Below are positions 22,195-58,756 of a stretch of DNA of 64,000 nt, in pieces; positions within the stretch are counted from its first letter, which is position 1; each line of letters opens with the position of its first letter. Location: contig CAVPCT010000009.1 in NCBI GenBank assembly GCA_963702475.1, positions 160,001 to 224,000 on the forward strand. Reading direction: 5' to 3'. The notes beneath the pieces are model-generated. The model saw only the letters and a list, made by a program, of their open reading frames with translations, was not told the DNA's origin and made no database searches. Source of the stretch: an uncultured Thermoleophilia bacterium. Lineage in GTDB: Bacteria > Actinomycetota > Thermoleophilia > UBA2241. The position numbers and the translations under genes are program-made.

Positions 22195-23151
22195 TCAGAG
22201 GGCCAGGCGGGCCGGCGCCTGTCGGTTCAGGTCCGCCGGCACCGGCGGCCCCTGTTCGATCAGCCGGTCGACGAGCTCACGATAGCCGTCGAGCCGCTCC
22301 GCGACGTCGTTGGTGCCCGTGTACGCCGCCTCCACGGCGAGGAACAGGAACACGTGCGTGAGCATGGTATCGCGCTGGTCGTAGTCGTTGTCCCAGGCGG
22401 CGCGCATCACGGCTTGCTCGTTGGCGCCGAAGAGGCTGTAGGCAACGAGTTCGTCCGGGACCGGCGGAGCGTCCGGGTTGCAGCGCAGGCCCGCGAGGTC
22501 CTCCGTGGGCCCGGAGGCGATGATGCGGAGCGCCTCTTGCACGGCCGCGCGGGTCTCCGAGTCCTCCTGCAGCGCCTCGGCGCGCGCGAGGCCGAGCAGG
22601 TCCGGGCTCAGCCGCTGCACGCCCCAGAACGCGTAGGTGCGCATGATGAGGCGTACGACCGGGTCGGGCTCGTCGGCGAGCGGCGGCTCGATGAGGCTGT
22701 TCATCCAGCGCACGAACACGCTGAAGGACTCGATGAACAGCTGCCGCTTGGTGCTGAAGTGCTGATAGAAGACGGGCAGGGTGATGCCGACCTCGGCGAT
22801 GATGTCGCCGATGCGCGCGCGCTTGTAGCCGTGGCGGGCGAAGTGGCGCGCCGCCGCCTGCAGGATCGCGGCGCGCGTCTCCGCCGTGCGGCGGGCGACG
22901 AGGTCGGGCTCGGCCGCCGCCTGCTGCTCGATGAGCGGCCGGATGCTCGCGCGGATCGAGTCGAGGTCGGCGCCGGCGGTCTTGAGGCGGCGGATCTCCG
23001 TGAGCAGCGCGACGTGCGTGTCGCTGTACAACGCACGGCTGGCCGCCGCCTTCTGTGCCTGCGGCAGCAGGCCCTCGCGCACGTAGAAGTAGATCGTGCT
23101 GCGCGGCGTGCTCGTCGCTGCTTCGAGCTCCGTGATCGTCAGCGCCCTCAC
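22195..23151 (-). CDS. MerR-HTH + TetR fusion regulator (copy 1)
   Basis: N-terminal LTITELEAATSTPRSTIYFYVREGLLP (MerR) followed by TRAAILQAAARHFARHGY...FYQHFSTK (TetR); GGAGG RBS. Confidence 0.85.
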   Translation of the reverse strand: MRALTITELEAATSTPRSTIYFYVREGLLPQAQKAAASRALYSDTHVALLTEIRRLKTAGADLDSIRASIRPLIEQQAAAEPDLVARRTAETRAAILQAAARHFARHGYKRARIGDIIAEVGITLPVFYQHFSTKRQLFIESFSVFVRWMNSLIEPPLADEPDPVVRLIMRTYAFWGVQRLSPDLLGLARAEALQEDSETRAAVQEALRIIASGPTEDLAGLRCNPDAPPVPDELVAYSLFGANEQAVMRAAWDNDYDQRDTMLTHVFLFLAVEAAYTGTNDVAERLDGYRELVDRLIEQGPPVPADLNRQAPARLAL

Positions 23152-23168
23152 GCGCCCTCCGTCTGCGA

Positions 23169-23198
23169 TTGACACGACCTTGCGCAGAACTCTAGCAT
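23169..23198 (+). promoter_or_regulatory. Sigma70-type promoter of the ferredoxin/flavoprotein/hydrolase operon
   Basis: TTGACA-18 bp-TAGCAT in an AT-richer divergent intergenic region. Confidence 0.5.
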
Positions 23199-23274
23199 GC
23201 ATAGCAACTATTCCAAGTCCTATAGCTCGCCGTCGCAGCCCGGCGGCGGAGATGCCAGGAGGTAGCGGGGAGAC

Positions 23275-23529
23275 ATGAACCAGGTCCTCATCGACTTCGA
23301 CGCGTGCACCGGCTGCAAGACCTGTTACCGGGCCTGTTTCGCCGACGTGATCCGCTGGGACGCGGAGGCGAAGCTGCCCCTCGTCGCGTACCCGGAAGAC
23401 TGCGTGCACTGCAACCTCTGCGAGATCAGCTGCAAGGACGAGGCCATCACCATCGTGGCCGACTGGGACGTGCCGTACCCGCCGGTCATCGAGCGCGGGT
23501 TCCCGTACAGAGTGGGAGGCCTGCGATGA
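23275..23529 (+). CDS. 2x[4Fe-4S] ferredoxin (AprB-like small subunit)
   Basis: CTGCKTCYRAC and CVHCNLCEISC; overlaps the next gene (ATGA). Confidence 0.9.
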   Translation: MNQVLIDFDACTGCKTCYRACFADVIRWDAEAKLPLVAYPEDCVHCNLCEISCKDEAITIVADWDVPYPPVIERGFPYRVGGLR

Positions 23530-25253
23530 CCGACCTCTCGCATCTCGGCCGGATCGAGACCGCAGACATCCTGGTGGTCGGCGGCGGCATCGGGGGTCTG
23601 GTCGCCGCCGTCGCGGCGAAGGAGAAGAACCCGGACGCCGACGTGCTCGTCGTCGAGCGCGCGACCTGCGGCTGGGCCGGCCAGGCCAACAAGGGGGCCG
23701 GCATCTGGTGGTACCTCGCCCCCGAGGACGACGCGGACGCGTTCGTGAAGTTCCACTGCGACCACATCGGCCACTACATCGAGGACCAGGAGCTGCTCGC
23801 CGAGTTCGGGCGCGAGAGCATGGACACGCTCGAGCGCATGGACGGCTGGACGCACAAGTTCCAGCGCCGTGAAGACGGGCAGTTCATCCACAAGCGCTTC
23901 AAGCCGTTCCTGCCCTGGAGCCTCACCGGCGCCGACCTCGACCTCATGCGCGTGCTCGCACGCCACGCGAAGAGGCTCGGCGTGCGCTTCATCGACAAGA
24001 CGTCGCTCACCGACCTGCTCACCGACGGCGGCCGCGTGGCCGGCGCCGTCGGCTTCGACCTGCTGGACGGCTCGCCCATCATCGTGCAGGCGCCGGCCGC
24101 CATCATCGCCACCGGCGGCCAGAGCTACCGCATCATGGGAATGTGGAGCTGCCAGCGCGGCGACGGCCTGGGTATGGCATGGCGCGCCGGAGCCGAGATG
24201 CGCAACGCCGAGTGGGGCCCGTTCGCCCAGCTCGCCGGCATCCGCGGCAAGGAGCCGCTCATCGGCGCGGAGGACGCCCTGTACAACGCGTGGCACGAGA
24301 AGCTCTCGCCGCGGTTCCGCGGCGAGTACGAGGCCGACGTGTGCGGCATGACCAGCGCCACCTGGTACAAGGAGATGGTGGCAGGCAACGGGCCGCTCGT
24401 GACGTTCCACCCGGAGAACTGGATGCTCGCCAACACCACCGAGGACGTTGAAGGCGGCACCGTGTGGGACCGCCCCGTCGCCGTGAAGTTCTGGACGACG
24501 CTCATCAGCCGCATCCGCGCCGCCGACGCGCCGGGCGCCTTTCTCGAGGTGTACCCGGCCGTACTCGGCGAGCTCTCGCCGATCAAGGTCGACCACCAGA
24601 TGGCGACGACGGTGCCGGGTCTCTACGCCTGCGGCAACGCCTGCTACAACGGCTCAGGCCTGCCCGGCGCCGTGCCCGCCTCGCCCGGGCGCATGCGCGG
24701 AGCCGGGCTCTACGGCGCCACCTTCATGGGCATCCGCGCCGGCGAGTCGGCGGCAGCCCAGGTGTCTCGCGCCGCGTCGCCCAAGCCCGACGCGGCGCAG
24801 GCCGAGGCGCTGGTCCACGAGGCACTCGCGCCGCTCGAGCGCGCTGATGGCACACCGGCCATGGACCTCGTCAAGGCCGTGCAGTACGCCGTGAACCCCG
24901 TCGGCTACTCGATCTACAAGAGCGAAGAGCGCATGAACGAGGCGCTCCAGCTCGTCCTGGACGTCAAGGAGCGCCTGCACCAGGCCAAGGCGGCCGACCC
25001 GCACTACCTGGTGGCCGCCCACGACGCGCGCAACATGGTCCTGAGCGCCGAGCTCTTCTACCGCACGGCGCTCGAGCGCAAGGAGTCGCGTGGCTGGTTC
25101 ATCCGCGAGGACTACCCCGAGCGCGACGACGCGCACTGGCTCAAGTGGATCAACGCCGCCGCCAGCGCGGGCGGCGGCGACATGCGCATCTGGACCGAGG
25201 ACGTGCCGCTGGAGCAGTACCCGTTCCGGCCGGCCGCAGCCGAGAGGAGCTGA
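23526..25253 (+). CDS. SDH/Frd/AprA-superfamily flavoprotein of unknown substrate
   Basis: ILVVGGGIGG, IIATGG, GDGLGMAWRAGAEMRN, GLYACG, RKESRG...REDYPERDD. Confidence 0.85.
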   Translation: MTDLSHLGRIETADILVVGGGIGGLVAAVAAKEKNPDADVLVVERATCGWAGQANKGAGIWWYLAPEDDADAFVKFHCDHIGHYIEDQELLAEFGRESMDTLERMDGWTHKFQRREDGQFIHKRFKPFLPWSLTGADLDLMRVLARHAKRLGVRFIDKTSLTDLLTDGGRVAGAVGFDLLDGSPIIVQAPAAIIATGGQSYRIMGMWSCQRGDGLGMAWRAGAEMRNAEWGPFAQLAGIRGKEPLIGAEDALYNAWHEKLSPRFRGEYEADVCGMTSATWYKEMVAGNGPLVTFHPENWMLANTTEDVEGGTVWDRPVAVKFWTTLISRIRAADAPGAFLEVYPAVLGELSPIKVDHQMATTVPGLYACGNACYNGSGLPGAVPASPGRMRGAGLYGATFMGIRAGESAAAQVSRAASPKPDAAQAEALVHEALAPLERADGTPAMDLVKAVQYAVNPVGYSIYKSEERMNEALQLVLDVKERLHQAKAADPHYLVAAHDARNMVLSAELFYRTALERKESRGWFIREDYPERDDAHWLKWINAAASAGGGDMRIWTEDVPLEQYPFRPAAAERS

Positions 25254-25257
25254 CCCG

Positions 25258-26112
25258 ATGGCGACCAGCAGGGAGTGCGCCGCGCGCGAACCCGCGCCGC
25301 TCACGGCGGAAGAGCAGGCCAGGCCGTACGCCAAGTACTACACGATGGACCTGGGCGGGGCCGACCCGGCAGCCCTGGAGCTCATGGCCCGCGACCGGCA
25401 GGTCCCGCAGGGCAAGATGCTCATGCCGGAGGACCTGGACAGGCTGCTCGACCCGGGCAACTTCGAGGTCGAGACCGGCTGGGGCATGATGGACAACGGC
25501 GCCGGTTACATCGCCATGCGCCACGAGATGCCGGGCGTCACCGTCGAGATGATCGACTGGTGGTTCGCCTGGCACCCCCTCGAGCCGCTGCGCTACCGCA
25601 TCTGGTACCCGCAGTACCACCTGGGCATCGGTCTCGACGAGTGGGTGCGTCCCCGCCTCAAGGACCCCGACGTCCCCGTGCGCGACAAGGTCGAGCAGGT
25701 CGTCCACCACGTGACCGAGGACACGGGCTGCGGCACCGAGCACATCGACATCCACTTCCTCACGCCGGAGCAGATGGGCTTCGACATGAACCGCTGGCAC
25801 GCGCCCAACGTGGGCACCTTCGTCGGCGGCTTCGGCTTCAGCCTCAACGAGCACCAGCCGGCGGATCTCCCCGCGGCGCCGGCCATCATGGTCCACTTCG
25901 TGCGCGAGATGGACGGCGGCGTGGAGTGGCGCACGCGCTTCTGGATGGGCTACACCATCATGGGCGGCCACCCGGTGTGCATGCTGCCGCCGGGCGTGCG
26001 CATCCCCGAAGAGGTGCCGCACGGCCTCGCCAACCACAACGTGCACGAGTACGGGCGCCTCAAGGCGCTGCTGCCGCTGATCTACGCCGAGCTCGGCGGC
26101 ACCTACGCATGA
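25258..26112 (+). CDS. Phloretin hydrolase/DAPG hydrolase (Phy/PhlG family) paralog 1
   Basis: PYAKYY, ETGW, MPGVTVEMIDWWFAWH, RYRIWYP, RTRFWMG; metal ligands H...E...HNVHE. Confidence 0.9.
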   Translation: MATSRECAAREPAPLTAEEQARPYAKYYTMDLGGADPAALELMARDRQVPQGKMLMPEDLDRLLDPGNFEVETGWGMMDNGAGYIAMRHEMPGVTVEMIDWWFAWHPLEPLRYRIWYPQYHLGIGLDEWVRPRLKDPDVPVRDKVEQVVHHVTEDTGCGTEHIDIHFLTPEQMGFDMNRWHAPNVGTFVGGFGFSLNEHQPADLPAAPAIMVHFVREMDGGVEWRTRFWMGYTIMGGHPVCMLPPGVRIPEEVPHGLANHNVHEYGRLKALLPLIYAELGGTYA

Positions 26113-27869
26113 GCGCTGACCCGGTCTACTACGACGCTCTGGTCAAGGACTACGACCTGCCGGTGACGATGCGCGACGGCGTCACCCTGCGCGTGGACGT
26201 GTACCGCCCCGACGCGCCCGGTCAGTTCCCCGTCCTCTACACGTGCGCCATGCACAACAAGGACCTGCAGCGGGTGGAGGTGGCCGAGAGCCTCAGGGTC
26301 GGGCAGCCCGCCTGGTCCACGCAGTGGTACGGGGTGATCGAGGGGGGAGACTCGAAGCGCTTCGTGGCCCACGGCTACGTGCACGTGATCGCGCAGGTGC
26401 GCGGCGGCCACAAGTCGGAGGGTGAGCTCCTCGTCGGCGACGAGTGGGACCACTACGACACCATCGAGTGGATCTGCTCCCAGCCGTGGTGCGACGGCAA
26501 CGTCGGCATGGTCGGCCTCTCGGCCTTCGCCGCCGAGCAGTGGAGGGCCGCCGCCCAGGGACACCCGGCGCTCAAGGCCATCTTCCCCCTGGACGCCGGC
26601 GGCTGCTACGGAGGGCTCGAGGGCTTCCGCGACCAGCACCCGGGCGGCGTGATCCAGACGATGCCGTACCATATCGGCCTCTACAACAGCCTGCACGGGA
26701 GCATCGGCACGCCGCCTGAGCTGCCGCCGCCCCTGGAAGAGGCGTGGGCGGCGGCCATGCGGGACCCCGACTACCTGATGTACGTGAACCTGTACAACAT
26801 CCTCACGCTGAAGGGGCAGCGTGACCCGGGGATGTTCTATCCGCTGCTGTTCCCGTTCGAGCGCCCCGGCACCGTCGCGCGCACCGAGGAGCTCTTCGCC
26901 AAGATCAGGATCCCCTTCGTCACCGGGGCCTTCGAGGGCGCCTACACCTACAAGATGCACTGGCAGGGGGCGCAGCACTTCTTCGCCGGCGTCGACGTGC
27001 CGCACAAGCACCTCTTCGTCACCCCGCCGGCGCACGCAGAGCGCCCGTTCCACGAGTGGCACGACGAGATCATCCGCTGGTACGACCACTGGCTGAAGGG
27101 CGTCGACAACGGAGTCGAGGACGACCCTGCAGTGCGGGCCTGGATCATGGGCGAGAACAGGTGGCGCGAGTTCGACGCGTGGCCCGTGCCCGAGACGCGG
27201 TGGACAGAGTACTACCTGCACTCCTGGGAGAAGCTCGACACCAGGGGTCACCTGCCGGCCACGCGCACCTTCGTCGACGAACCGCCGGACGCCTTCGTGC
27301 AGATGCCGCCGACGCAGACCAACACCATCCAGCGGCTCCGCTACCTGACGGAGCCGCTGGCCGACGACACCCTCGTCGTCGGTCCCATCTCGCTCACCTT
27401 CTGGGCGTCACTCGACGAGGACGACACGAACTGGATCGTCATCCTCAAGGACGTCGGCCCGGACGTCTCGGTGCAGACCGTGCGACCCGGCGAGCGCGAG
27501 CGCCCCGCCGTGCCGGAGCGGGAGCTCACGCGCGGCTGGCTGAGGGCCTCACGCCGCGCGCTCGACCCCGAACGCTCGACGCCCTGGAAGCCCTGGCACC
27601 ACCTCAGCCCGGAGACCATCAGCCCGGTCGTGCCCGGCGCCGTCGAGGAGTACCAGGTGGAGATCCTCTCCACCGCCAACCTCTTCAAGACGGGCCACCG
27701 CATCTGCCTCGAGATCACCAGCCTGGACCTGGCCGAAGGAGTGGCCGGCGAGACCTTCGCGGAGTACATCCCCAACCACGTGTGCTCGAGCAGGACGGTG
27801 CTGCACAAGGTGTTCCACAACGCCGAGTACCCGTCGCACCTGCTGCTGCCCGTCGTCCCCCTCGAGTAG
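26109..27869 (+). CDS. CocE/NonD-family alpha/beta hydrolase
   Basis: MRDGVTLRVDVYRP, QPWCDGNVGMVGLS, RWYDHWLKG, PepX-type C-terminal domain (LFKTGHRICLEI, YPSHLLLPV). Confidence 0.9.
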   Translation: MSADPVYYDALVKDYDLPVTMRDGVTLRVDVYRPDAPGQFPVLYTCAMHNKDLQRVEVAESLRVGQPAWSTQWYGVIEGGDSKRFVAHGYVHVIAQVRGGHKSEGELLVGDEWDHYDTIEWICSQPWCDGNVGMVGLSAFAAEQWRAAAQGHPALKAIFPLDAGGCYGGLEGFRDQHPGGVIQTMPYHIGLYNSLHGSIGTPPELPPPLEEAWAAAMRDPDYLMYVNLYNILTLKGQRDPGMFYPLLFPFERPGTVARTEELFAKIRIPFVTGAFEGAYTYKMHWQGAQHFFAGVDVPHKHLFVTPPAHAERPFHEWHDEIIRWYDHWLKGVDNGVEDDPAVRAWIMGENRWREFDAWPVPETRWTEYYLHSWEKLDTRGHLPATRTFVDEPPDAFVQMPPTQTNTIQRLRYLTEPLADDTLVVGPISLTFWASLDEDDTNWIVILKDVGPDVSVQTVRPGERERPAVPERELTRGWLRASRRALDPERSTPWKPWHHLSPETISPVVPGAVEEYQVEILSTANLFKTGHRICLEITSLDLAEGVAGETFAEYIPNHVCSSRTVLHKVFHNAEYPSHLLLPVVPLE

Positions 27870-27884
27870 AGCGAGAGGAGAGCA

Positions 27885-28667
27885 ATGCTCAAGAGCATCG
27901 TCATGATGGACCTGCCCATCGACGACATCGCCGAGATGGAGCGCTGGTATTACGAGGCGCACTCCTCGGAGATCTCGCGGCGGTACGGGCCCTGGCTGCA
28001 GCGCCACGAGAGCTACGTGGCGCTGGACGCGCCCGAGGACGCGCGCCAGTTCGGCTTCTACAACTGGCGCGTCACCGAGTGCTGCTGGCGCGAGATGCCG
28101 CAGGCGGGGCCGGCCGGCGCCTACTGCTTCACGCCGGCCCCCGTCTGGAACCCTATCGCCACCTGCGCCGTCAAGCCGCAGCCCGACGACGACTTCTTCG
28201 GCTGGGACGGCTTCTCCACGCAGGGCGCCAGCATCCGCTGGTTCATCCTCCTGCGGTATCCGTTGGGCGTGCGCCTCAAGGACGGCGAGGACTGGTTCCG
28301 CAACGTGCACGCCCCGGAGGTGTGCCGGCAGCCGGGGCTCACACGCTTCTTCAGCCACAAGTGCGAGCAGGCGGCGGTCCCGCTGCCCGGCGTGTGGCAC
28401 CCGGACGCCTCGCCGCCCCAGGACTACCTCATGGTCCAGTGGGACCGCGTCGTGGAGCTCTGGTACCCGAGCTTCAGCGCCTGGCGCAAGGCGGTCATCG
28501 AGGAGCCGCCGGTCTACACGCCGCCGGAGTGGGCGACCGACGACTTCTACAAGGACGGCTACGCCCGGTACCCGTTCTTCAAGCCCGGCGTGGACTTCGT
28601 CAGCACGTTCCTGCTCGAGCGCCCCGCCGACGAGTTCCTGCGCGACACGCGCTACTACCGGCCGTGA
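27885..28667 (+). CDS. Bacterial chalcone isomerase-like protein (tandem ferredoxin-like fold)
   Basis: ERWYYEAH, FGFYNWRVTECCW, YPLGV..KDGEDWF, DRVVELWY, PEWA...YPFFKP are collinear with Eubacterium ramulus CHI as I recall it. Confidence 0.75.
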   Translation: MLKSIVMMDLPIDDIAEMERWYYEAHSSEISRRYGPWLQRHESYVALDAPEDARQFGFYNWRVTECCWREMPQAGPAGAYCFTPAPVWNPIATCAVKPQPDDDFFGWDGFSTQGASIRWFILLRYPLGVRLKDGEDWFRNVHAPEVCRQPGLTRFFSHKCEQAAVPLPGVWHPDASPPQDYLMVQWDRVVELWYPSFSAWRKAVIEEPPVYTPPEWATDDFYKDGYARYPFFKPGVDFVSTFLLERPADEFLRDTRYYRP

Positions 28668-28683: not shown

Positions 28684-29523
28684 ATGCCCGTGAGACAGCT
28701 CACGCCCGAAGAAGAGGCCAAGCCGTACGCGAAGTACTACCACCGTCCGGTGACGCCGCCGGACGCGGACCTGGTCGCGCTCATCCGGCCGGACGTGCAG
28801 ATCGACCCGGCCCTGGCGCTGCCGCCGGAGCGCATCAGCGACCTGCTCGACCCCGGCTACCACGAGGTCGAGACCGGCTGGTGCATCATGCCCGACGGCA
28901 GCGGCTACCTGGCCGTGCACAACCGCATGCCCGGCGTCACCGTGGAGATGCTCGACTGGTGGTTCTGGTGGCACTCCATGGCCAGCGTGCGCTACGGCCT
29001 GTGGTATCCGCCGGGGCACTACGGCATCTCCATAAGCCGGAGGTCGCGCGCCCGGCTCAGCGACCCGGACGTACCGGCCAAGGACAAGATCTACGGCCGC
29101 ACCGACCACGTGGTCGAGGACATCGGCACCGGCGCGGAGGACATCTACATCTGCTTCTGCGCGCCCGAGGAGATGGGCTTCGACATGAGCCGCTTCCATG
29201 CCCCGCACGTGGCGGCCGTGTACGGCGGCTACGGCTTCGACCAGCCGCAGGGCGCCAGGCCGAGCGACATCCGCGCGCCCGCCATCATGTGCCACTTCAT
29301 ACGCGAGCTCCCCGACGCCGAGGGCGTCGAGTTCCGCTCGCGCTTCTGGATGGGTTACAAGCTCATCGACGGCGAGCCCGTGCTGGCCATCCCGCCGGGC
29401 GAGTCGGTGCCGGCCGCGGTGCCCTACGGCCTCGCCGATCACAACGTCAAGGAGTACTGCAACCTCAAGTCGCTGCTGCCCGAGGTCTGGGCGGAGTTCA
29501 AGGACGAGGACCCGGCTCTGTGA
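28684..29523 (+). CDS. Phy/PhlG-family hydrolase paralog 2
   Basis: PYAKYY, MPGVTVEMLDWWFWWH, HVVED, RSRFWMG, HNVKE. Confidence 0.9.
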   Translation: MPVRQLTPEEEAKPYAKYYHRPVTPPDADLVALIRPDVQIDPALALPPERISDLLDPGYHEVETGWCIMPDGSGYLAVHNRMPGVTVEMLDWWFWWHSMASVRYGLWYPPGHYGISISRRSRARLSDPDVPAKDKIYGRTDHVVEDIGTGAEDIYICFCAPEEMGFDMSRFHAPHVAAVYGGYGFDQPQGARPSDIRAPAIMCHFIRELPDAEGVEFRSRFWMGYKLIDGEPVLAIPPGESVPAAVPYGLADHNVKEYCNLKSLLPEVWAEFKDEDPAL

Positions 29524-29542: not shown

Positions 29543-30337
29543 ATGCCAATGAAGCTGATGGCGGCGTCACGCCGCCGGCCTGGACTCACCAGGGCGGAGT
29601 ACTTCCGCTACATCGAGCACTACCACGGCACGGTGGCGCGCCTGGAGCGCTTCAAGATCGAGAAGTACATCCAGAACCACGTGATCGACGGCGCCTTCGG
29701 CGTGATCTCCGACGCCGGCGGCCACAAGAACAAGGTCGCCGACAGGGACGCCGTCGTCGAGCTCCACTTCGACAGCTTCCGCGACATGCTGGCCACCCTC
29801 GAGCCCGAGGGGGTGACCCAGTCGCGGGCCAACCAGGACGGCCGCTTCTTCGCCGACGAGCCGACCAACATCATCGTCATGGCCGAGGAGACCGAGCTTC
29901 CCGTGGCCAAGCCCCTGCCGGACTTCAATCCGGGACTGGGTGAGCCGGGGCACGGAGCTCTCAAGGTGATGCAGTTCGTCATGCGCCGCCCCGACGTCTT
30001 CCCCCAGGACTTCCACCGGCTCTGGTGCCGGGCTCACGACGAGGCCCTGGCGGCGAGCCCGTACGCGAACGACATGTTCCGCAGGATCGTCGTGAGCAAG
30101 CGCTCCCGGGTGAACGACAACGACGCGGCCGCCCGGGCGCACTTCAAGATGGTCGACCCGCCGGTGTACGACCTCGTGGTCTCGTTCATCCTCGACAGCG
30201 TGGAGCAGGCCGGCGCCTTCAGGCAGTACTTCGACGCCGTCACGAGCAGCCCGCTGGAGTTCGCCGACTGGTCGGAGTCGTTCTTCCTCTACGTGAGGCA
30301 GGTGCGGATCATCGACGACGCGCCGCCGAAGGAGTAG
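29543..30337 (+). CDS. Tandem EthD-domain protein
   Basis: [27 protein letters not shown]...YIQNH...DAVVELHFDS, with a second repeat LKVMQFVMRRPD...FHRLW. Confidence 0.75.
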   Translation: MPMKLMAASRRRPGLTRAEYFRYIEHYHGTVARLERFKIEKYIQNHVIDGAFGVISDAGGHKNKVADRDAVVELHFDSFRDMLATLEPEGVTQSRANQDGRFFADEPTNIIVMAEETELPVAKPLPDFNPGLGEPGHGALKVMQFVMRRPDVFPQDFHRLWCRAHDEALAASPYANDMFRRIVVSKRSRVNDNDAAARAHFKMVDPPVYDLVVSFILDSVEQAGAFRQYFDAVTSSPLEFADWSESFFLYVRQVRIIDDAPPKE

Positions 30338-30341
30338 TGCC

Positions 30342-31250
30342 ATGGCAGACATGACCAAGCCCGAGTGGGCCGCGCAGAAGACCTACGACCAGAATCTGGG
30401 CGACGCCAGGATCAAGGCCACGCGCCCGCCGCTCACGCCGGAGGAAGAGAAACGGCCGTTCGCCAAGTACTACTACGACGAGATCCCCGAGCCGGACCCG
30501 GCGCACTACGCGGACATGGACGTGCCGATGGACCCCTCCGACGCGTTCTACCCGGAGGAGATCGACCGCCTGCTCGACGTCCCGGCCCTCGAGGCGGGCG
30601 TGGAGGTCGGCTGGTGCAACCTGCCCAACGGCGCCGGCTACATCGCCAACCGGATCCACTATCCGGACTTCACCGCCGACATGGTCGACTGGTGGTTCGC
30701 CTGGCACCCGCTCGAGGACCTGAGGTACCGCATCTGGTACCCGCCGCAGCACGCCGGCATCATGCTGAGCCCCATCGACAGGGCCCGCATCCTCGACGAC
30801 TCCATCCCCAACCGGGAGAAGAACTGGGGCGTGGTCCACAACGTGACGGAGAACTGCAACTGCGGCTTCGAGAACGTCGACATCGCCTTCCGCTCGCCGG
30901 CCGACATGGGCTTCGACATGGAGAAGTTCGGCAGGGTGGCGGCCACGATGGCGGCGGGCCAGGGCTGGGCCGTGGCCGTCGAGAAGTGCGACGCGTCCAT
31001 CACCGCGCCGGCGATCATGTGCCACGTGCTGTACGACGCTCCGGAGGGCGGGCTGATCCACCGCACGCGTTTCTGGATGGGCTACCGCTTCAACGAGGCG
31101 GGCAAGCCGGAGCTGTGCCTGCCGCCGGGCGTGAGCGTGCCCGTGGAGGCCGTGCAGGGTCTGGCGCGCCACAACGTCAAGGAGTTCACGCGCTGGCGCG
31201 AGTTCCTGCCGCGGATCTACGCGGAGCTGGGGCCGGGGATGTACTGCTGA
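30342..31250 (+). CDS. Phy/PhlG-family hydrolase paralog 3
   Basis: PFAKYY, DMVDWWFAWHPLEDLRYRIWYP, RTRFWMG, HNVKE. Confidence 0.9.
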   Translation: MADMTKPEWAAQKTYDQNLGDARIKATRPPLTPEEEKRPFAKYYYDEIPEPDPAHYADMDVPMDPSDAFYPEEIDRLLDVPALEAGVEVGWCNLPNGAGYIANRIHYPDFTADMVDWWFAWHPLEDLRYRIWYPPQHAGIMLSPIDRARILDDSIPNREKNWGVVHNVTENCNCGFENVDIAFRSPADMGFDMEKFGRVAATMAAGQGWAVAVEKCDASITAPAIMCHVLYDAPEGGLIHRTRFWMGYRFNEAGKPELCLPPGVSVPVEAVQGLARHNVKEFTRWREFLPRIYAELGPGMYC

Positions 31251-31497: not shown

Positions 31498-33570
31498 ATG
31501 ACCGCGTCGTACCCGCAGCTGTTCTCGCCGACGAGCATCGGCAAGGTCCGGCTGAAGAACCGCATCGTCAAGACGGCCGCGCAGACGTACTTCTTCGAGT
31601 CGGGCGAGCGGCGCTTCGGCGGCATCGCCAAGGCCTTCTACGGAGCTGTGGCGCGTGGTGGTCCCGGCCTCGTCATCTGCGAGACGCCGGCCATGGAGGC
31701 GCCCTACAAGGAGACGGACGACCGCCGCTACCGCGTCGACGACGACCGCTTCCTGCCCGACATCGAGGCGCTCGCGGCCGAGGTCCACAAGTACGACTGC
31801 CCGCTCTTCCTGCAGTTCTACCACCGCGGCCCGTGGGGCGGCGTGTACGCGGTCGGCAGGCGGCGCATCTCCGCGTCGGGCGTGACCGTGGCGTCGCCCT
31901 TCGACGTCTACGGGGAGGAGCCGCCGCACGCCATGACCCTCGCCGACATCGAAGAGGTCATCGAGGCGTTCGTGGACGGCGCCGCGCGCGCGGCGCGCGG
32001 CGGCGTCGACGGTATCGAGATCAACGCCGCCGACGACCACCTGCTCCCGACCTTCCTCTCCCGCTTCTGGAACAGGCGCGACGACCGGTACGGTCCCCAG
32101 AGCATGGAGAACCGGGCACGCATCGTCGTCGAGATCGTGAGGGGCATCAAGGAGCGTGTCGGTGCGGACTTCCCCGTACAGGTGCGCATGAACGCCATCG
32201 AGATCGGCGGCGGCCCCGAGGGCCTGACGCTCGCCGAGGGCAAGGAGCTGGCCGTGCTGCTGGAGGCCGCCGGCGTCGATTCGCTCCACGTCAAGTCTCA
32301 CTGGATGGGCATGCATCAGGGCTCCTACAACCAGGAGGTGCTGTTCTACCCGGAACCACACATCCCGCTGAGCGAGTTCCCGCCCGAGCTGGACTGGAGC
32401 GGCAAGGGCGCCGGGGCGCAGGTCCCCTTGGCGGCCGGCATCAAAGAGGTGGTCTCGATCCCGGTGATGACCGTCGGCGTGCTCGATGCCGACCTCGGCG
32501 AGAAGGCTCTGGGAGAGGGCAAGGCCGACCTCATCGGCATCAACCGGCGGTTCTTCGCCGACCCCGACTACGCGCGCAAGGTCAAGGAGGGCAGGCTGGA
32601 CGACATCCAGCCGTGCACGCACTGCGGCACGTGCAACACCAACTACAACAAGCCGCGGTACTGCCGCATCAACGCCTGCTTCGGGCTGGACCAGAACGAG
32701 CCGGCGCCGCTGCGCACGAGGAAGAGGGTCCTCGTGGTCGGCGGCGGCCCGGCCGGCATGCAGGCCGCGCGCATCGCTGCCGAGCGCGGCCACGAGGTCC
32801 GACTCTGGGACAAGGGCCACTACCTCGGCGGCGCCACACCGCTCGCCAACATGGTGAAGGGCTTCGAGGTCGACGAGCTGGACCGGTTCATCGCATTCTT
32901 CCGGCGCCGGATCGGTAAGGTGGGCGTCACCGTGGAACTCGGGCGGGAGTTCGACCCGGAGGTGCTGGACCGCGTGCATCCCGACGCGGTCGTGCTCGCG
33001 CTGGGCGGGGTGCCGGTGCTGCCCGACGTCCCCGGCCTCGACGGCGGGAACGTCGTCAAGACGAGCGACCTCTACGGGAGGCTGCGGCTGGCACTTCGTG
33101 TGTTCGGGCCGCGCCGGCTGCGCGAGCTGACGAAGCTCTGGATGCCGGTCGGCGACGACGTGGTCATCATCGGCGGCGCGATCCAGGGGTGCCAGCTCGG
33201 CGAGTTCCTGACGAAGCGCGGCCGCAGGGTGACGATCGTGGAGACCGGCGACGAGCTGGGCGGCGGCCTGGTCCCCGAGCGCATGACACGCCTCTTCTAC
33301 TGGTTCGACAGGAAGGGCGTAGAACGGCTGACGGGCGTGACGCTCGTGGAGATCACTCCCGACAGCCTCTCGATCGTCACCCGCGAGGGCGATCAGCGGT
33401 TCCTGGCGGCCGACACCGTCATCCCGGTCCTGCCGTTCGTCGCGAACCGGGAGATGGAGGACGCCGTCCGCGCGAGGGTCGCCGAGGTCTACGCGATCGG
33501 CGACTGCGACAGCCCGGCGACCATCCCGGAGGCCATCGCGGCGGGCTGGCGGGTGGGGAACGCGCTGTAG
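31498..33570 (+). CDS. NADH:flavin oxidoreductase (OYE + 4Fe-4S + FAD), paralog of 9737
   Basis: FWNRRDDRYG, CTHCGTC...[17 protein letters not shown]. Confidence 0.9.
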   Translation: MTASYPQLFSPTSIGKVRLKNRIVKTAAQTYFFESGERRFGGIAKAFYGAVARGGPGLVICETPAMEAPYKETDDRRYRVDDDRFLPDIEALAAEVHKYDCPLFLQFYHRGPWGGVYAVGRRRISASGVTVASPFDVYGEEPPHAMTLADIEEVIEAFVDGAARAARGGVDGIEINAADDHLLPTFLSRFWNRRDDRYGPQSMENRARIVVEIVRGIKERVGADFPVQVRMNAIEIGGGPEGLTLAEGKELAVLLEAAGVDSLHVKSHWMGMHQGSYNQEVLFYPEPHIPLSEFPPELDWSGKGAGAQVPLAAGIKEVVSIPVMTVGVLDADLGEKALGEGKADLIGINRRFFADPDYARKVKEGRLDDIQPCTHCGTCNTNYNKPRYCRINACFGLDQNEPAPLRTRKRVLVVGGGPAGMQAARIAAERGHEVRLWDKGHYLGGATPLANMVKGFEVDELDRFIAFFRRRIGKVGVTVELGREFDPEVLDRVHPDAVVLALGGVPVLPDVPGLDGGNVVKTSDLYGRLRLALRVFGPRRLRELTKLWMPVGDDVVIIGGAIQGCQLGEFLTKRGRRVTIVETGDELGGGLVPERMTRLFYWFDRKGVERLTGVTLVEITPDSLSIVTREGDQRFLAADTVIPVLPFVANREMEDAVRARVAEVYAIGDCDSPATIPEAIAAGWRVGNAL

Positions 33571-34676: not shown

Positions 34677-34707
34677 TTGACTCTGACCCGCGTCAGTGTT
34701 GGAAGGT
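34677..34707 (+). promoter_or_regulatory. MerR-type promoter/operator (copy B)
   Basis: TTGACTCTGACCCGCGTCAGTGTTG-GAAGGT; first 25 nt differ from copy A at only 2 positions; 19-bp spacer. Confidence 0.7.
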
Positions 34708-34785
34708 GCCGGGAGCGACGAGCGGCGCGGTCGCAGCGTCACGCCGCGCGCCGCCGCACACAGCACTCGAGGGAGGTCAGCACTC

Positions 34786-36279: not shown

Positions 36280-36280
36280 C

Positions 36281-46294: not shown

Positions 46295-46307
46295 GGGGAA
46301 GAGAGAG

Positions 46308-55412: not shown

Positions 55413-55447
55413 TGGGCGGTGCCACCGGCGTCCGCGCCGGCACGGGT

Positions 55448-55496
55448 CCGGAGACACGAGAGAGGCGCCCGCGAGGGCGCCCCTCCCGTGCTCCGG
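55448..55496. terminator. Hairpin between convergent genes
   Basis: GGCGCCC-GCGA-GGGCGCC core with extended flanking pairing. Confidence 0.45.
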
Positions 55497-55518
55497 CTCT
55501 GTCTCGCCTGCCGGTGGA

Positions 55519-56638: not shown

Positions 56639-56639
56639 G

Positions 56640-57272: not shown

Positions 57273-57415
57273 GAAACCCCCTTCATCTGTGGTCCCGGTC
57301 GCGTATGGTACAACTGGAAACGTTGACTAGAATGCTACCATGTACACTACGCTGCGGTGTGGGTCAAGGACCCCATCGGCGCTGGAGCAGGCCGGGACGG
57401 AGCTGGGGGAGGGGC

Positions 57416-58345
57416 GTGCGAGCGCTGACGATAGGCGAGCTCGAGCGGGAGAGCGGCGTACGCCGCCGCACGATCTACTACTACGTGCACCATGGGCTGC
57501 TGCCCGAGGCGCAGAAGTCCAGCCCGAGCCGCGCTCTCTACACCGAGGCCCACCTCGCGCTCCTGCGCGACATCGAGGAGTTGCGCACGCAGGGGCTGCG
57601 TCTCGCCCGGATCCGGGAGAGGCTGGCCGGCCGTGTGCGGGCGGCGGGAGAGAACGGGGTGGACCTGGTCGCCCTCCGCGACCAGGAGACCCGGGAGGCA
57701 ATCCTTGCCGCCGCGACCCACAGCTTCGCGCACAAGAGCTACAAGGGCACGCGCATGGCCGACCTCGTGGCCGAGCTCGGCATCACCCCGCAGCTGCTGT
57801 ACTCGCACTTCGCCACCAAGCGCGAGCTCTTCGTGGCCTGCTACAAGGTGGCCGTCCGGTACATGGCCGGCGTGGTGGTGCCTTTGGCCGGCCAGAGCGA
57901 CGACCCCGCGGTGCACCTGGTCTGGTACATGTACGCCGACAAGGGCATCAAGGCGTTCGCGCCGGACATGTTCATGCTGGCGGTAGAGGCCGCCCGGCAC
58001 GACGAGGCGGCGCGGCGCGACCTCCTCGAGGCCTACGAGACGATCTTCCGGGACCTCCTCACCGATCTGCGGCGTCTGCGCGGCGCCGACGACCGGCCGC
58101 CGTTCTCTGACGAGCTCATCAGCCACGGTCTCTTCGGCGCGTTCGAGCAGATGCTCGCACGCGCCGCGCTCGACGATGAGTACTCGTGGCGCGAGGTCGT
58201 GCGGACGACCCTCGGCATCTTCCTCGCCGTCGCCGCCGGGTACGGCGGTGACCTCGACCTGGGCGCCTTGGTCGCGCGCTACGACACCCTGCTCGACGAG
58301 GTCGCCGAGCTCCCGCCGCCGGTGCCGCTCGAGCTGCAGACGTAG
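57416..58345 (+). CDS. MerR-HTH + TetR fusion regulator (copy 3)
   Basis: LTIGELERESGVRRRTIYYYVHHGLLP + TREAILAAATHSF...LYSHFATK. Confidence 0.85.
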   Translation: MRALTIGELERESGVRRRTIYYYVHHGLLPEAQKSSPSRALYTEAHLALLRDIEELRTQGLRLARIRERLAGRVRAAGENGVDLVALRDQETREAILAAATHSFAHKSYKGTRMADLVAELGITPQLLYSHFATKRELFVACYKVAVRYMAGVVVPLAGQSDDPAVHLVWYMYADKGIKAFAPDMFMLAVEAARHDEAARRDLLEAYETIFRDLLTDLRRLRGADDRPPFSDELISHGLFGAFEQMLARAALDDEYSWREVVRTTLGIFLAVAAGYGGDLDLGALVARYDTLLDEVAELPPPVPLELQT

Positions 58346-58533: not shown

Positions 58534-58755
58534 TTGAACGCCATCGCCATCGACCGTGACGCCTGTACCAGCTGCCAGACCTGCTACGAGGTCTGCTTCA
58601 TGGACGTCTTCCGCTGGGACGACGCCGAAGACCAGCCCGTCGTGGCCTACGCGGAGGATTGCGTCGGCTGCAACAAGTGCGAGCTCGAGTGTCCTGCCGA
58701 GTGCATCGCGGTGATCATCGACTTTGCCGGCATCTACTGGCCGGAGGTGGTGTGA
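58534..58755 (+). CDS. 2x[4Fe-4S] ferredoxin (AprB-like)
   Basis: CTSCQTCYEVC and CVGCNKCELECP; paralog of 23275. Confidence 0.9.
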   Translation: MNAIAIDRDACTSCQTCYEVCFMDVFRWDDAEDQPVVAYAEDCVGCNKCELECPAECIAVIIDFAGIYWPEVV

Positions 58756-58756
58756 G

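What the first reader, a model, noticed from the sequence alone, without database searches (positions are those of the whole stretch)
23275..25253. AprBA-like ferredoxin + flavoprotein pair leading the flavonoid-hydrolase operon: candidate new reductase
Seen: a translationally coupled ferredoxin and SDH/AprA-fold flavoprotein directly upstream of phy-cocE-chi-phy-ethD-phy. The covalent-FAD His motif of SDH is replaced (GWAGQANKG), and there are no membrane anchors or sulfate-reduction genes. A paralogous pair at 58534-60469 shares ANKG, AWRAGAxMRNAE, ELSPxKVDH and PGRMRG. Inference: a soluble ferredoxin-linked ene- or ring-cleaving reductase (for example chalcone to dihydrochalcone) unrelated to the known OYE-type enzymes.
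Basis: partly seen in the sequence, partly recalled or inferred. Interest (0 to 1): 0.72.

Follow-up and report, generated by a model that had tools for sequence, protein, structure and literature searches.

The report
Ferredoxin-flavoprotein partner of phloretin hydrolase
A small iron-sulfur protein and an unusual flavoprotein are encoded next to, and in many gut and rumen bacteria fused to, an enzyme that splits plant polyphenols, which points to an undescribed redox step in the anaerobic breakdown of flavonoids.

Summary
An 84-aa 2x[4Fe-4S] ferredoxin (23275-23529) overlaps by ATGA a 575-aa SdhA/AprA-fold flavoprotein (23526-25253). A phloretin-hydrolase-family gene (phy1, 25258-26112) follows after 4 nt. 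A 48%-identical ferredoxin/flavoprotein pair lies at 58534-60469.

The flavoprotein passes no curated AprA, SdhA/FrdA or NadB model. It lacks the covalent-FAD His and two fumarate-site His that the genome's own SdhA keeps.

New here:
- The ferredoxin-flavoprotein-Phy trio is the conserved core. It is present in 9 of 9 same-genus genomes that carry flav1.
- The trio recurs in Lachnospiraceae, Oscillospiraceae, Sporobacter (beside a complete phloroglucinol pathway), Dehalococcoidia-type, Bathyarchaeota and deltaproteobacterial contigs.
- In rumen and gut Oscillospiraceae the flavoprotein and Phy are one polypeptide (74 of the 120 best database clusters listed).
- A complex model supports Phy1 docking on the flavoprotein (score 0.89, best control 0.01).

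Best reading (about 0.45): a soluble ferredoxin-fed reductase that makes the saturated acylphloroglucinol (dihydrochalcone) that Phy then cleaves, so a non-OYE analogue of Fcr. The substrate is inferred, not shown. I found no description of it in seven literature searches.

The parts
22195..23151 (-). MerR+TetR fused regulator, divergent from the operon (start approximate)
   Evidence: Pfam MerR_1 and TetR_N in one ORF. An ortholog with 68-83% identity sits beside the transporter or fdx1 in relatives.
23169..23198 (+). Promoter-like TTGACA-18 nt-TAGCAT upstream of fdx1
   Evidence: Read from the sequence. The same layout, TTGACA-18 nt-TAGAAA, lies at 58429-58458 upstream of fdx2. Not tested further.
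23275..23529 (+). fdx1: 84-aa 2x[4Fe-4S] ferredoxin subunit
   Evidence: Pfam Fer4 families. Eight invariant Cys and invariant Trp28 in 13 homologs. The stop overlaps the flav1 start.
23526..25253 (+). flav1: 575-aa SdhA/AprA-fold FAD protein of a distinct, Phy-linked clade
   Evidence: Pfam; NCBIfam all below cut-off; model pLDDT 82.5, pTM 0.89; Foldseek top hits 8a8o_A, FrdA and AprA at about 20% identity; tree.
25258..26112 (+). phy1: DAPG/phloretin-hydrolase-family C-C hydrolase, the constant partner of flav1
   Evidence: NCBIfam PhlG-like 97 bits. Start ATG 25258, 4 nt after the flav1 stop. Adjacent in 9 of 9 flav1-bearing genus genomes. Complex model.
26142..27869 (+). CocE/NonD-family hydrolase (start approximate); accessory, seen only in this genome among those compared
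   Evidence: Pfam Peptidase_S15 and PepX_C. No counterpart in G003, G006, G013 or G021 loci.
27885..28667 (+). Bacterial chalcone isomerase homolog
   Evidence: Pfam Chalcone_N. Present in G013, G021 and L072; absent from the G003 and G006 clusters.
28684..29523 (+). phy2, second Phy paralog
   Evidence: Pfam DAPG_hydrolase 4e-71.
29576..30337 (+). EthD-domain protein (start approximate)
   Evidence: Pfam EthD.
30342..31250 (+). phy3, third Phy paralog
   Evidence: Pfam DAPG_hydrolase 4e-63.
31498..33570 (+). OYE + Pyr_redox_2 Fe-S flavoenzyme (enoate-reductase/Fcr-type architecture)
   Evidence: Pfam Oxidored_FMN and Pyr_redox_2. NCBIfam BaiCD/bilirubin-reductase-like, below cut-offs. Not found at this place in the four relatives' clusters.
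57305..58345 (+). MerR+TetR regulator upstream of the second pair
   Evidence: NCBIfam MerR-type and TetR-type hits in one ORF.
58534..58755 (+). fdx2: 73-aa 2x[4Fe-4S] ferredoxin, paralog of fdx1
   Evidence: Pfam Fer4 families. 51% identical to fdx1.
58757..60469 (+). flav2: paralogous flavoprotein without a Phy partner
   Evidence: 48% identity to flav1. Nested in the Phy-linked clade as sister of flav1. No Phy-like domain nearby. In relative G021 it is followed by an EthD-domain ORF.
60545..61474 (+). TetR-type regulator downstream of flav2
   Evidence: NCBIfam TetR-type hits. 58-73% identical to the MerR+TetR regulators of relatives.

Best explanation
fdx1 and flav1 form a soluble two-subunit iron-sulfur flavoenzyme. 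Electrons would enter through the two [4Fe-4S] clusters of the small subunit and reach a non-covalently bound FAD.

The enzyme works as a unit with the C-C hydrolase Phy1. The two are physically associated here and fused into one polypeptide in many Oscillospiraceae.

The most likely job is the reductive step that prepares the hydrolase's substrate. A chalcone or flavanone-type (alpha,beta-unsaturated or ring-closed) acylphloroglucinol is reduced to the saturated dihydrochalcone. Phy1 then splits that into phloroglucinol and a phenylpropionate. Phloroglucinol goes on through the SDR/cyclase/BKACE pathway.

Functionally this would be a ferredoxin-fed, non-OYE analogue of the flavanone-cleaving reductase Fcr.

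Shown: gene structure, family placement, conserved linkage, fusions, modelled contact.
Inferred: cofactor content, direction of electron flow, substrate.

My odds:
- About 0.85 that it is a redox enzyme acting on the same molecule as Phy in acylphloroglucinol/flavonoid catabolism.
- About 0.45 that the reaction is chalcone/flavanone to dihydrochalcone.
For: (1) Tight coupling: fdx1/flav1 overlap by ATGA, and phy1 starts 4 nt after flav1.

(2) Same-genus genomes: flav1 orthologs occur in 9 of 24. Phy matches (E<=1e-30) occur in exactly those 9, each with phy1 directly downstream. None of the other 15 has a Phy match. Kin are not independent.
- CHI, phy2, EthD and phy3 are missing from the G003 and G006 clusters.
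- cocE and the OYE gene were not found in the clusters of any of the four relatives examined.
- So the trio is the core.

(3) Other phyla:
- phy-fdx-flav or fdx-flav-phy in Lachnospiraceae L034, Oscillospiraceae L037 and L039, Ruminococcaceae L038, Sporobacter L043 and metagenome L077.
- Short Phy-like genes beside fdx-flav in L055, L078 and L036.
- With a Phy HMM, 16 of the 27 rows of the clade have a Phy-like domain within 1 kb, against 1 of 54 rows outside it. The tree needs 4 changes of state.

(4) Fusions:
- L037 (819 aa), L038 (915 aa) and L039 (859 aa) carry FAD_binding_2 + Succ_DH_flav_C + DAPG_hydrolase in one ORF behind a ferredoxin gene.
- 74 of the 120 best listed clusters have that architecture.
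- 25 of 201 sampled genomes of that GTDB family match, some fused and some split.
- L035 has a second kind of fusion.

(5) Sporobacter locus: LysR-phy-fdx-flav-SDR-3HCDH-cyclase-BKACE-MFS. The trio feeds the four-enzyme phloroglucinol pathway described in PMC10470551 (passages read). No CHI or OYE gene is in the locus.

(6) Complex model with Phy1 as the partner:
- Score 0.89, best of 3 controls 0.01. That mark was reached by 58 of 80 solved complexes and 2 of 110 mismatched pairs.
- The runs agree in at least 95% of contacts, and the partner's pLDDT is at least 90.
- The counts hold only roughly, because my own alignments and three chains were used.
- Contacts lie on flav1 253-259, 284-294 and 335-339, and on the fdx1 tail 76-78.

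(7) The superfamily's usual chemistry is hydride transfer from FAD N5 to a C=C conjugated with a carbonyl (established knowledge, recalled).

(8) Fcr plus Phy suffice for flavanone breakdown without CHI (PMC11868195, passages). CHI was found with the window's query in only 1 of the 5 Firmicutes genomes.

(9) The genome has 12 POR_N matches, so sources of reduced ferredoxin exist.
Against: - No assay, no expression data and no cofactor data.
- In this window an OYE/Fe-S enoate-reductase homolog (31498-33570) already offers a candidate for the chalcone/flavanone step, so flav1 is not needed by elimination here. The five Firmicutes genomes hold 3 to 22 such paralogs each.
- The residues that would bind and protonate the substrate are not identified.
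- The model's loops next to the flavin (47-55, 203-207, 380-387) have pLDDT below 50.
- The two sequence alignments disagree on which residue replaces the covalent His.
- flav2 and L075 lack a Phy partner, so the family is not bound to Phy in every case.
- The electron donor is unknown, and a di-cluster subunit says nothing about direction.
- Fusion proves coupling, not the order of the two steps.
Confidence: 0.45

Rival explanations
1. The flavoprotein reduces a different flavonoid bond upstream of Phy. One option is the C2=C3 bond of flavones/flavonols, making it an FLR analogue. Another is the reductive opening of auronols such as alphitonin or maesopsin, whose cleaving enzyme is still called unknown.
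For: - CHI, which makes alphitonin from taxifolin, lies in the same operon here and in G013, G021 and L072.
- Three Phy paralogs suggest several acylphloroglucinol substrates.
- PMC12203004 (passages) says alphitonin is expected to be cleaved 'by an unknown enzyme'.
- Enone reduction fits the superfamily (recalled).
Against: - The trio occurs without CHI in G003, G006 and the Sporobacter locus. CHI was not found with the window's query in 4 of the 5 Firmicutes genomes.
- A flavone reductase would not give a Phy substrate directly, which fits poorly with a fusion to Phy.
Confidence: 0.2
2. The flavoprotein acts after Phy, on one of its products. It could be a 2-enoate (hydroxycinnamate) reductase used as an electron sink. 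Or it could be a dearomatising ring reductase for a resorcinol- or phloroglucinol-type ring released by the hydrolase. The gene of the ferredoxin-dependent resorcinol reductase is, to my knowledge, unassigned.
For: - Many soluble members of the superfamily reduce alpha,beta-unsaturated carboxylates (recalled).
- PMC10470551 (passages) names a ferredoxin-dependent resorcinol reductase and explains why the keto tautomer is easy to reduce.
- A search for 'resorcinol reductase' found only that paper.
- Fusion does not fix the order of steps.
Against: - Two of the His residues that hold the dicarboxylate in FrdA/SdhA are replaced (Ala234 and Leu).
- In Sporobacter and L078 an SDR and a cyclase of the phloroglucinol pathway are encoded beside the trio, so the ring already has its reductase.
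- Phy is not known to accept unsaturated chalcones (recalled, not checked).
Confidence: 0.15
3. The enzyme runs oxidatively. It would be a dehydrogenase that desaturates a C-C bond next to a carbonyl (as succinate dehydrogenase or ketosteroid dehydrogenases do) and passes electrons out through the ferredoxin subunit, perhaps to the neighbouring FAD_binding_4/CCG complex.
For: - The genome has a haem-copper oxidase.
- A GlcD/GlcF-like FAD_binding_4/CCG/FAD_binding_4 set follows the trio in all four relatives' clusters. It also sits beside the distant homolog in G027.
Against: - The same trio and the fusions are abundant in rumen and gut Oscillospiraceae, presumably anaerobes (recalled, not checked here), where no such acceptor complex lies in the four Firmicutes loci whose flanks were scanned (L039 flanks partly scanned).
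- Desaturating a dihydrochalcone would make a worse, not a better, Phy substrate (inference).
Confidence: 0.07
4. It is an ordinary APS reductase, succinate dehydrogenase/fumarate reductase or L-aspartate oxidase that merely lies near flavonoid genes.
For: Pfam families FAD_binding_2 and Succ_DH_flav_C. Automatic names in public sources read 'succinate dehydrogenase/fumarate reductase flavoprotein subunit'.
Against: - Curated models: aprA 67 bits against a cut-off of 642; sdhA_frdA 145 against 567; nadB 102 against 453; the best model, NF006131, 179 against 587.
- The genome's own SdhA keeps GRSH, QIHPT, HYSMGG and NRLGGNS, whereas flav1 and flav2 lack the three His.
- It forms a separate clade with strong support.
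- No membrane anchor was found. No match to the aprA model reaches its cut-off in the genome.
Confidence: 0.01

Closest known systems
Dissimilatory APS reductase AprBA and the AprA-like archaeal PAPS reductase (PDB 8a8o, 1jnr)
   Same: - A small di-[4Fe-4S] subunit gene lies directly upstream of, and is translationally coupled to, an SdhA-fold flavoprotein.
- There is no covalent-FAD His and no membrane anchor.
- 8a8o_A is the best Foldseek hit (E 2e-33, TM 0.76) and the only full-length PDB sequence hit of that kind.
   Different: - About 20% identity.
- The aprA and aprB models score far below their cut-offs (67 against 642 bits; 19 against 136 bits).
- By sequence the ferredoxin is nearest to polyferredoxin, FwdF and PsaC-type domains. 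AprB is not among the best 60 PDB matches.
- No sulfate-reduction genes were seen in the window. The constant partner is a C-C hydrolase.
SdhA/FrdA flavoprotein subunits and L-aspartate oxidase NadB
   Same: Same fold (TM 0.76-0.80 to E. coli FrdA). Same FAD-binding and C-terminal domains. The Arg aligned with FrdA Arg390 is kept as Arg389, which is invariant in 22 family members.
   Different: - The covalent His is absent.
- The positions of FrdA His232 and His355 (literature numbering, recalled) are Ala and Leu.
- A clade-specific insertion GAVPA(S/P)PGR(M/N)RGSG is present.
- There is no SdhB/C/D. The partner is a free-standing 84-aa ferredoxin.
Fcr / EnoR, the OYE-type Fe-S flavoenzyme that cleaves flavanones and flavanonols to dihydrochalcones (Eubacterium ramulus, Flavonifractor plautii)
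   Same: Proposed to do the same job directly before Phy. In Clostridium butyricum the candidate FLR, Fcr and Phy genes are also consecutive (PMC11868195, passages).
   Different: Unrelated fold (TIM-barrel FMN plus NADH/FAD domain against SdhA fold). Fcr is NADH-dependent, whereas this enzyme would take electrons through a ferredoxin subunit. Only this family is found fused to Phy.
Phloretin hydrolase Phy / 2,4-diacetylphloroglucinol hydrolase PhlG
   Same: The partner gene and the fused C-terminal domain belong to this family (Pfam DAPG_hydrolase, 195-243 bits in the fusions).
   Different: The characterised Phy and PhlG enzymes cited in the papers read here (PMC8398226 and PMC11868195, passages) are described without a fused redox domain, and none of the seven searches found a redox partner described for them. 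The window's phy1-3 score 89-97 bits against the PhlG equivalog cut-off of 600, so they are family members, not PhlG orthologs.
Soluble FAD_binding_2 reductases with non-fumarate substrates (urocanate reductase, cardiac glycoside reductase Cgr2, ketosteroid dehydrogenases, tetrahydrodaidzein reductase)
   Same: They set a precedent for this superfamily acting on C=C bonds conjugated with carbonyls in plant or host small molecules (recalled, not tested here).
   Different: None of them was retrieved as a close relative in any search here. None is known to me with this ferredoxin subunit or a Phy partner.

Membership tests
AprA (adenylylsulfate reductase alpha, TIGR02061 / NF005331) | Score above the curated equivalog cut-off | tested here: not met
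   TIGR02061 67.3 bits against 641.75; NF005331 118.3 against 557. The whole-genome search with TIGR02061 found 0 matches over the cut-off.
AprA | Genomic company of sat, aprB, qmo and dsr genes | tested here: not met
   None seen among the window's annotated genes. The rest of the genome was searched only for aprA; sat and dsr were not searched.
AprB (TIGR02060) | Score above the cut-off; AprB-specific C-terminal part | tested here: not met
   19.4 bits against 135.65. AprB is not among the best 60 PDB sequence matches of the ferredoxin profile.
SdhA/FrdA (TIGR01812, NF006131 and others) | Score above the curated cut-offs | tested here: not met
   Best is NF006131, 179.1 against 587. TIGR01812 gives 144.7 against 567.3.
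SdhA/FrdA | Covalent-FAD His (R-S-H motif) and the two substrate His | tested here: not met
   There is no His in GWAGQANKGAG. The FrdA His232 and His355 positions are Ala and Leu. The genome's own SdhA keeps GRSH, QIHPT and HYSMGG in the same alignment. Residue numbers are recalled from the literature.
SdhA/FrdA | SdhB-type three-cluster subunit and membrane anchor | tested here: not met
   The neighbour is an 84-aa two-cluster ferredoxin. No hydrophobic segments were found outside the Rossmann motif.
NadB (L-aspartate oxidase, TIGR00551) | Score above the cut-off | tested here: not met
   101.6 bits against 452.75. A separate NadB-like gene exists on contig 3.
SdhA/AprA structural superfamily | Three-domain fold (FAD, capping, C-terminal helical) | tested here: met
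   Model pTM 0.89. Foldseek probability 1.00, TM 0.74-0.80 to 8a8o, FrdA, AprA and SdhA.
Phy-linked ferredoxin-flavoprotein clade (proposed here) | Ferredoxin gene within 200 bp upstream; motifs G(W/Y)xG(Q/K)A(N/D)(K/R)G and GAVPAxPGRxRGSG; Phy-family gene adjacent or fused | tested here: met
   flav1 meets all three. All 27 clade rows have the ferredoxin, and 16 have a Phy-like domain within 1 kb. flav2 meets the first two but has no Phy.
Fcr/EnoR (OYE-type flavanone-cleaving reductase) | Oxidored_FMN TIM barrel plus Pyr_redox_2 domain | tested here: not met
   flav1 has neither as its main fold. The architecture is present instead in the separate genes 31498-33570 and 9737-11836.
Fcr-like activity (works like) | Reduces flavanones or chalcones to dihydrochalcones | not testable with these tools
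   Needs an anoxic enzyme assay.

The most novel reading that the evidence does not exclude
This is a previously unrecognised enzyme class of anaerobic polyphenol catabolism. It would be a ferredoxin-driven SdhA/AprA-fold reductase that forms a channelling complex, or a single fused polypeptide, with a retro-Claisen C-C hydrolase. One machine would then open and cut flavonoid-type acylphloroglucinols, possibly including the auronols whose cleaving enzyme is unknown. It is spread from soil Thermoleophilia, Dehalococcoidia and Bathyarchaeota to rumen and gut Oscillospiraceae. It would run alongside, or replace, the NADH-dependent Fcr route on which current surveys of flavonoid degraders rely.
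Probability: 0.35. Interest if true: 0.85.

Novelty: new variant of a known kind. Interest (0 to 1): 0.7.

Why it matters
Current maps of anaerobic flavonoid breakdown list four enzymes: FLR, CHI, Fcr and Phy. This is according to the 2021 in-silico survey PMC8398226, the 2025 ISME J paper PMC12203004 and the August 2026 review PMC13515148 (passages read in each). Several steps are marked 'unknown enzyme'.

Gut, rumen and peat surveys count degraders by those four genes. A ferredoxin-dependent reductase that is genetically welded to Phy would add a missed route:
- It occurs in about one in eight sampled genomes of an Oscillospiraceae-type family (25 of 201).
- It occurs in several soil and sediment phyla.
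- It would change which organisms are scored as polyphenol degraders.
- It would link polyphenol breakdown to the low-potential ferredoxin pool, which is relevant to hydrogen and methane budgets.

It also offers biocatalysis a compact reductase-hydrolase pair. The fusion proteins give a ready experimental handle.

Tried and rejected
- **Selenocysteine.** One search flagged '1 TGA' inside many flav2 orthologs. My extraction shows no in-frame stop within any of them. The flag comes from the ferredoxin stop just upstream. L011 has a frameshift instead.
- **Thermoleophilia 'fusions' P0047 and P0086**. They lack part of the flavoprotein and may be truncated or mis-called. I do not count them. The clean fusions are the Firmicutes ones and L035.
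- **Complementary distribution with OYE-type reductases.** Uninformative, because the five Firmicutes genomes hold 3 to 22 paralogs each.
- **Expression.** No RNA holder was listed for window 23100-27900.
- **AprB likeness of the ferredoxin.** Not supported by sequence. The invariant Trp28 recalls the Trp between cluster and FAD in AprB, but that is recalled, not tested.
- **Model of the 819-aa fusion** (pLDDT 80, pTM 0.73). Both modules fold, but the tool returns no inter-domain geometry, so it adds little.
- **Tree references.** The tree holds no bona fide AprA or NadB, because no named sequences could be fetched. The own-genome NadB-like hit was too short to pass my length filter. Only the genome's own SdhA serves as reference. 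Five rows were dropped as duplicate or partial pieces (L038_11057, L039_3184, L048_2298, L048_1611, L106_6493). Four rows were trimmed to the flavoprotein part.
- **First tree run** with the mixture model timed out. The tree used is LG+G4, quick search.
- **Literature.** Seven searches found no paper describing this pair, the trio or the fusion. Subscription-only papers and supplements were not seen.
Full report
**What is in the window**

The window has 69.5% G+C. It is contig 9, 160001-224000, of a 4.3-Mb genome in nine contigs. Public names of the nearest proteins point to Thermoleophilia-type Actinomycetota.

At the given coordinates there is an 84-aa ORF (ATG 23275, AGGAGG upstream). It has two CxxCxxCxxxC motifs and Pfam Fer4 hits. 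Its TGA overlaps the ATG (23526) of a 575-aa protein with FAD_binding_2 and Succ_DH_flav_C domains. Four nucleotides after that gene's stop, phy1 starts at ATG 25258. It is a 284-aa member of the DAPG/phloretin-hydrolase family.

The row continues with:
- a CocE/NonD hydrolase
- a bacterial chalcone isomerase
- phy2
- an EthD-domain protein
- phy3
- after a 247-bp gap, an OYE plus Pyr_redox_2 Fe-S flavoenzyme.

A MerR+TetR fused regulator is divergent upstream.

**The wider window**

The whole window reads as a polyphenol island:
- a pyrogallol-transhydroxylase-like molybdoenzyme
- three SDRs (3412-4224, 20630-21391, 21403-22161)
- a BKACE enzyme
- beta-oxidation-type genes
- an ADP-forming acyl-CoA synthetase
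- two corrinoid/URO-D O-demethylase sets
- a Liv-type ABC transporter
- a FAD_binding_4/CCG/FAD_binding_4 set.

**Family placement**

- No curated NCBIfam model is passed. The best is NF006131 at 179 bits against a cut-off of 587. aprA gives 67 against 642, sdhA_frdA 145 against 567, and nadB 102 against 453.
- Against PDB sequences the best hits are mycobacterial SdhA (1e-28) and E. coli FrdA. An AprA-like archaeal PAPS reductase (8a8o) is the full-length hit.
- The AlphaFold model (pLDDT 82.5, pTM 0.89) matches 8a8o_A, FrdA and AprA about equally well (TM 0.76-0.80, about 20% identity).
- The covalent-FAD His is absent. The positions of FrdA His232 and His355 are Ala and Leu, while the Arg390 position is kept (numbering recalled).
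- In one alignment the genome's own SdhA shows GRSH, QIHPT, HYSMGG and NRLGGNS. flav1 and flav2 instead have GW(A/G)G(Q/K)ANKG, a deletion, GEL-SP(I/V)KVD, and an insertion GAVPA(S/P)PGRMRG(A/S)G.
- By sequence the ferredoxin is a generic two-cluster ferredoxin. AprB is not among its best 60 PDB matches.

So the pair resembles AprBA in arrangement and fold, but it is not a member of the AprA, SdhA/FrdA or NadB families.

**The conserved unit is ferredoxin-flavoprotein-Phy**

In 24 genomes of the same genus:
- flav1 orthologs (81-87% identity) occur in 9.
- Phy matches occur in exactly those 9, each with the phy1 ortholog immediately downstream.
- None of the other 15 has a Phy match at E<=1e-30. 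Kin are not independent.

Four relatives were read in detail:
- G003 and G006 have only fdx1-flav1-phy1.
- G013 and G021 add CHI-phy2-EthD-phy3.
- cocE and the OYE gene are found only in the window's genome.

In all four, a MerR+TetR regulator and the Liv transporter lie upstream, and the FAD_binding_4/CCG/FAD_binding_4 set follows. The flav2 pair lies about 9 kb upstream between regulators.

**Other phyla**

A scan of one genome per species found 33 loci. A metagenome scan found 44. The trio appears in:
- a Lachnospiraceae MAG (phy-fdx-flav)
- two Oscillospiraceae MAGs and one Ruminococcaceae MAG (fdx-flav-phy)
- a Sporobacter genome
- metagenome contig L077.

In Sporobacter the order is LysR-phy-fdx-flav-SDR-3HCDH-cyclase-BKACE-MFS. 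That places the trio directly in front of the four enzymes of the phloroglucinol pathway described for Clostridium scatologenes (PMC10470551, passages read).

Relatives at 36-42% identity first looked Phy-less. On Pfam scanning they turned out otherwise:
- Short Phy-like genes lie directly upstream in L055 and L078. L078 also has an SDR and a cyclase.
- A Phy-like gene lies 430 bp away in a Bathyarchaeota contig (L036).
- A Phy-like domain forms the C-terminus of the flavoprotein in a deltaproteobacterial MAG (L035).

In a tree of 82 rows (LG+G4, quick search, own SdhA as outgroup), flav1, flav2 and all these relatives form one clade of 27 rows (SH-aLRT 99). All 27 have a ferredoxin gene within 200 bp upstream.

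With a Phy HMM, the 27 clade rows divide as follows:
- 16 have a Phy-like domain within 1 kb.
- 9 are the flav2 lineage.
- 1 (L075) has none.
- 1 (L073) has no room left on its contig.

Outside the clade 1 of 54 rows has one (L047). The tree needs four changes of state. flav2 is nested as sister of flav1 (support 87), so it looks like a lineage-specific duplicate that lost the Phy link.

**Fusions**

- In L037, L038 and L039 the flavoprotein and Phy are one ORF of 819, 915 and at least 859 aa. Each carries FAD_binding_2, Succ_DH_flav_C and DAPG_hydrolase domains and sits behind a ferredoxin gene.
- Searching the 5.8-billion-protein collection with the L037 protein gave 716 proteins at E<=1e-30 among 7996 scored candidates. 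Of the 120 listed, 74 (P0126-P0199, 713-889 aa) have that fused architecture. Their only names are 'FAD-dependent oxidoreductase' or 'FAD-binding protein' from Oscillospiraceae and Ruminococcaceae MAGs.
- In 201 sampled genomes of that GTDB family, 25 match at E<=1e-80. Some are full-length fusions, twice as tandem pairs. Others are split adjacent genes.

Fused and split forms within one family are the classical sign that two proteins act together.

**Modelled contact**

A three-chain model (flav1, fdx1, phy1, each with its alignment; Phy1 as the scored partner) gave a score of 0.89 against a best control of 0.01.
- That mark was reached by 58 of 80 solved complexes and 2 of 110 mismatched pairs.
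- The runs agree in at least 95% of contacts, and the partner's pLDDT is at least 90.
- The calibration holds only roughly, because my own alignments and three chains were used.
- Contacts are on flav1 253-259, 284-294 and 335-339, which I read as the capping domain. That domain closes over the substrate in this superfamily (recalled). Contacts also fall on the C-terminal tail of fdx1 (76-78).

I know of no solved complex of these two families, so memory is an unlikely source (recalled). The model supports binding; it does not show it.

**How it most likely works**

Shown:
- a translationally coupled two-cluster ferredoxin and an SdhA-fold flavoprotein
- the absence of the dicarboxylate and covalent-FAD residues
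- a constant, sometimes covalent, association with a Phy-family hydrolase
- placement upstream of the phloroglucinol pathway.

Inferred:
- Electrons from the ferredoxin pool pass through the two clusters to FAD. The genome has 12 POR_N matches.
- The reduced flavin delivers a hydride to a C=C conjugated with the aryl ketone of a chalcone or flavanone-type compound.
- The saturated acylphloroglucinol passes to Phy, which releases phloroglucinol.

Fcr plus Phy are known to suffice for flavanone breakdown without CHI (PMC11868195, passages). The trio would be the ferredoxin-dependent counterpart. I give 0.85 to 'redox partner of Phy on the same substrate' and 0.45 to this particular reaction.

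Against it:
- There is no assay.
- An OYE-type candidate lies in the same row here.
- The active-site loops are modelled with low confidence.
- flav2 and L075 lack Phy.
- The order of the two steps and the direction of electron flow are open.

Rivals are reduction of another flavonoid bond or of auronols (0.20), action on a Phy product, either a cinnamate or a resorcinol-type ring (0.15), an oxidative role (0.07), and an ordinary AprA/SdhA/NadB (0.01).

**Novelty**

Seven full-text searches found nothing on this pair, the trio or the fusion. The same holds for passages of the Catenibacillus genomics paper (PMC11170127), the in-silico gut survey (PMC8398226), the C. butyricum paper (PMC11868195), the peat catechin study (PMC12203004) and an August 2026 review (PMC13515148).

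Those texts list FLR, CHI, Fcr and Phy as the known enzymes. They call the enzyme that cleaves alphitonin unknown. Subscription journals and supplements were not seen.

I rate the finding as a new variant of a known kind: a known superfamily, with a new clade, a new partner and probably a new reaction.

Noticed in passing
window 22195-23151(-), 44584-45513, 57305-58345, 60545-61474; also L025-L032: At least three paralogous regulators in the window carry a MerR-type N-terminal HTH and a TetR HTH in one ORF (Pfam or NCBIfam hits to both). A fourth gene, 60545-61474, shows only TetR-type hits but is 58-73% identical to them. One flanks each catabolic module, and the same holds in relatives. This domain combination is unusual.
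   Followed up: partly
window 23169-23198 and 58429-58458: Both ferredoxin genes are preceded by TTGACA-18 nt-TAG(C/A)A(T/A), with a shared CTCTAG...AGTCCT in or after the spacer. This may be a common operator for the MerR+TetR regulators.
   Followed up: no
window 34696-39315; L025, L028, L030, L031, L033: A FAD_binding_4 / Fer4_8+CCG / FAD_binding_4 set (GlcD/GlcF-like) follows the trio in all four relatives' clusters. In G027 it also lies directly behind a 31-33% identical flavoprotein homolog. It may be a redox partner.
   Followed up: partly
window 17434-20403: A 989-aa molybdopterin enzyme with the AhtL-like (pyrogallol hydroxytransferase large subunit) first domain. Relatives carry 50%-identical copies near the same island.
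   Followed up: no
window 45656-47567 and 54551-57272(-): Two corrinoid-protein plus URO-D-type methyltransferase sets, which look like O-demethylase components. One sits directly upstream of the regulator of the fdx2-flav2 pair.
   Followed up: no
L027:4605-5555 (G021): In this relative flav2 is followed by an EthD-domain ORF (Pfam 30.6 bits). In the window a TetR gene stands there instead. An EthD-domain gene also sits between phy2 and phy3.
   Followed up: partly
L047:8219-8815: An Acidobacteriota MAG has a Phy-like domain 1.2 kb from a flavoprotein only 25% identical to flav1. This is the single Phy link outside the clade.
   Followed up: no
G134:C24:54262-59680 and G234:C8:16310-21697: Two flavoprotein-Phy fusion genes in tandem (about 60% and 67% identical to the L037 protein), suggesting diversified substrate ranges.
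   Followed up: no
window 505-545 of flav1 (alignment): In the alignment of 23 selected rows, a signature position separates the groups. The nine rows with a full-length Phy partner have ESRGWF(I/L/V)RED and the flav2 rows have RGWHLRED. The other clade rows, including those with short Phy-like genes, have RG(S/W/F)H(F/Y)RED. SdhA has RGAHAR. The His-to-Phe change may lie near the active site.
   Followed up: partly
window 26142-27869 and 31498-33570: The CocE/NonD hydrolase and the OYE-type reductase are additions to the operon. Among the five genus genomes compared they are seen only in this one.
   Followed up: partly
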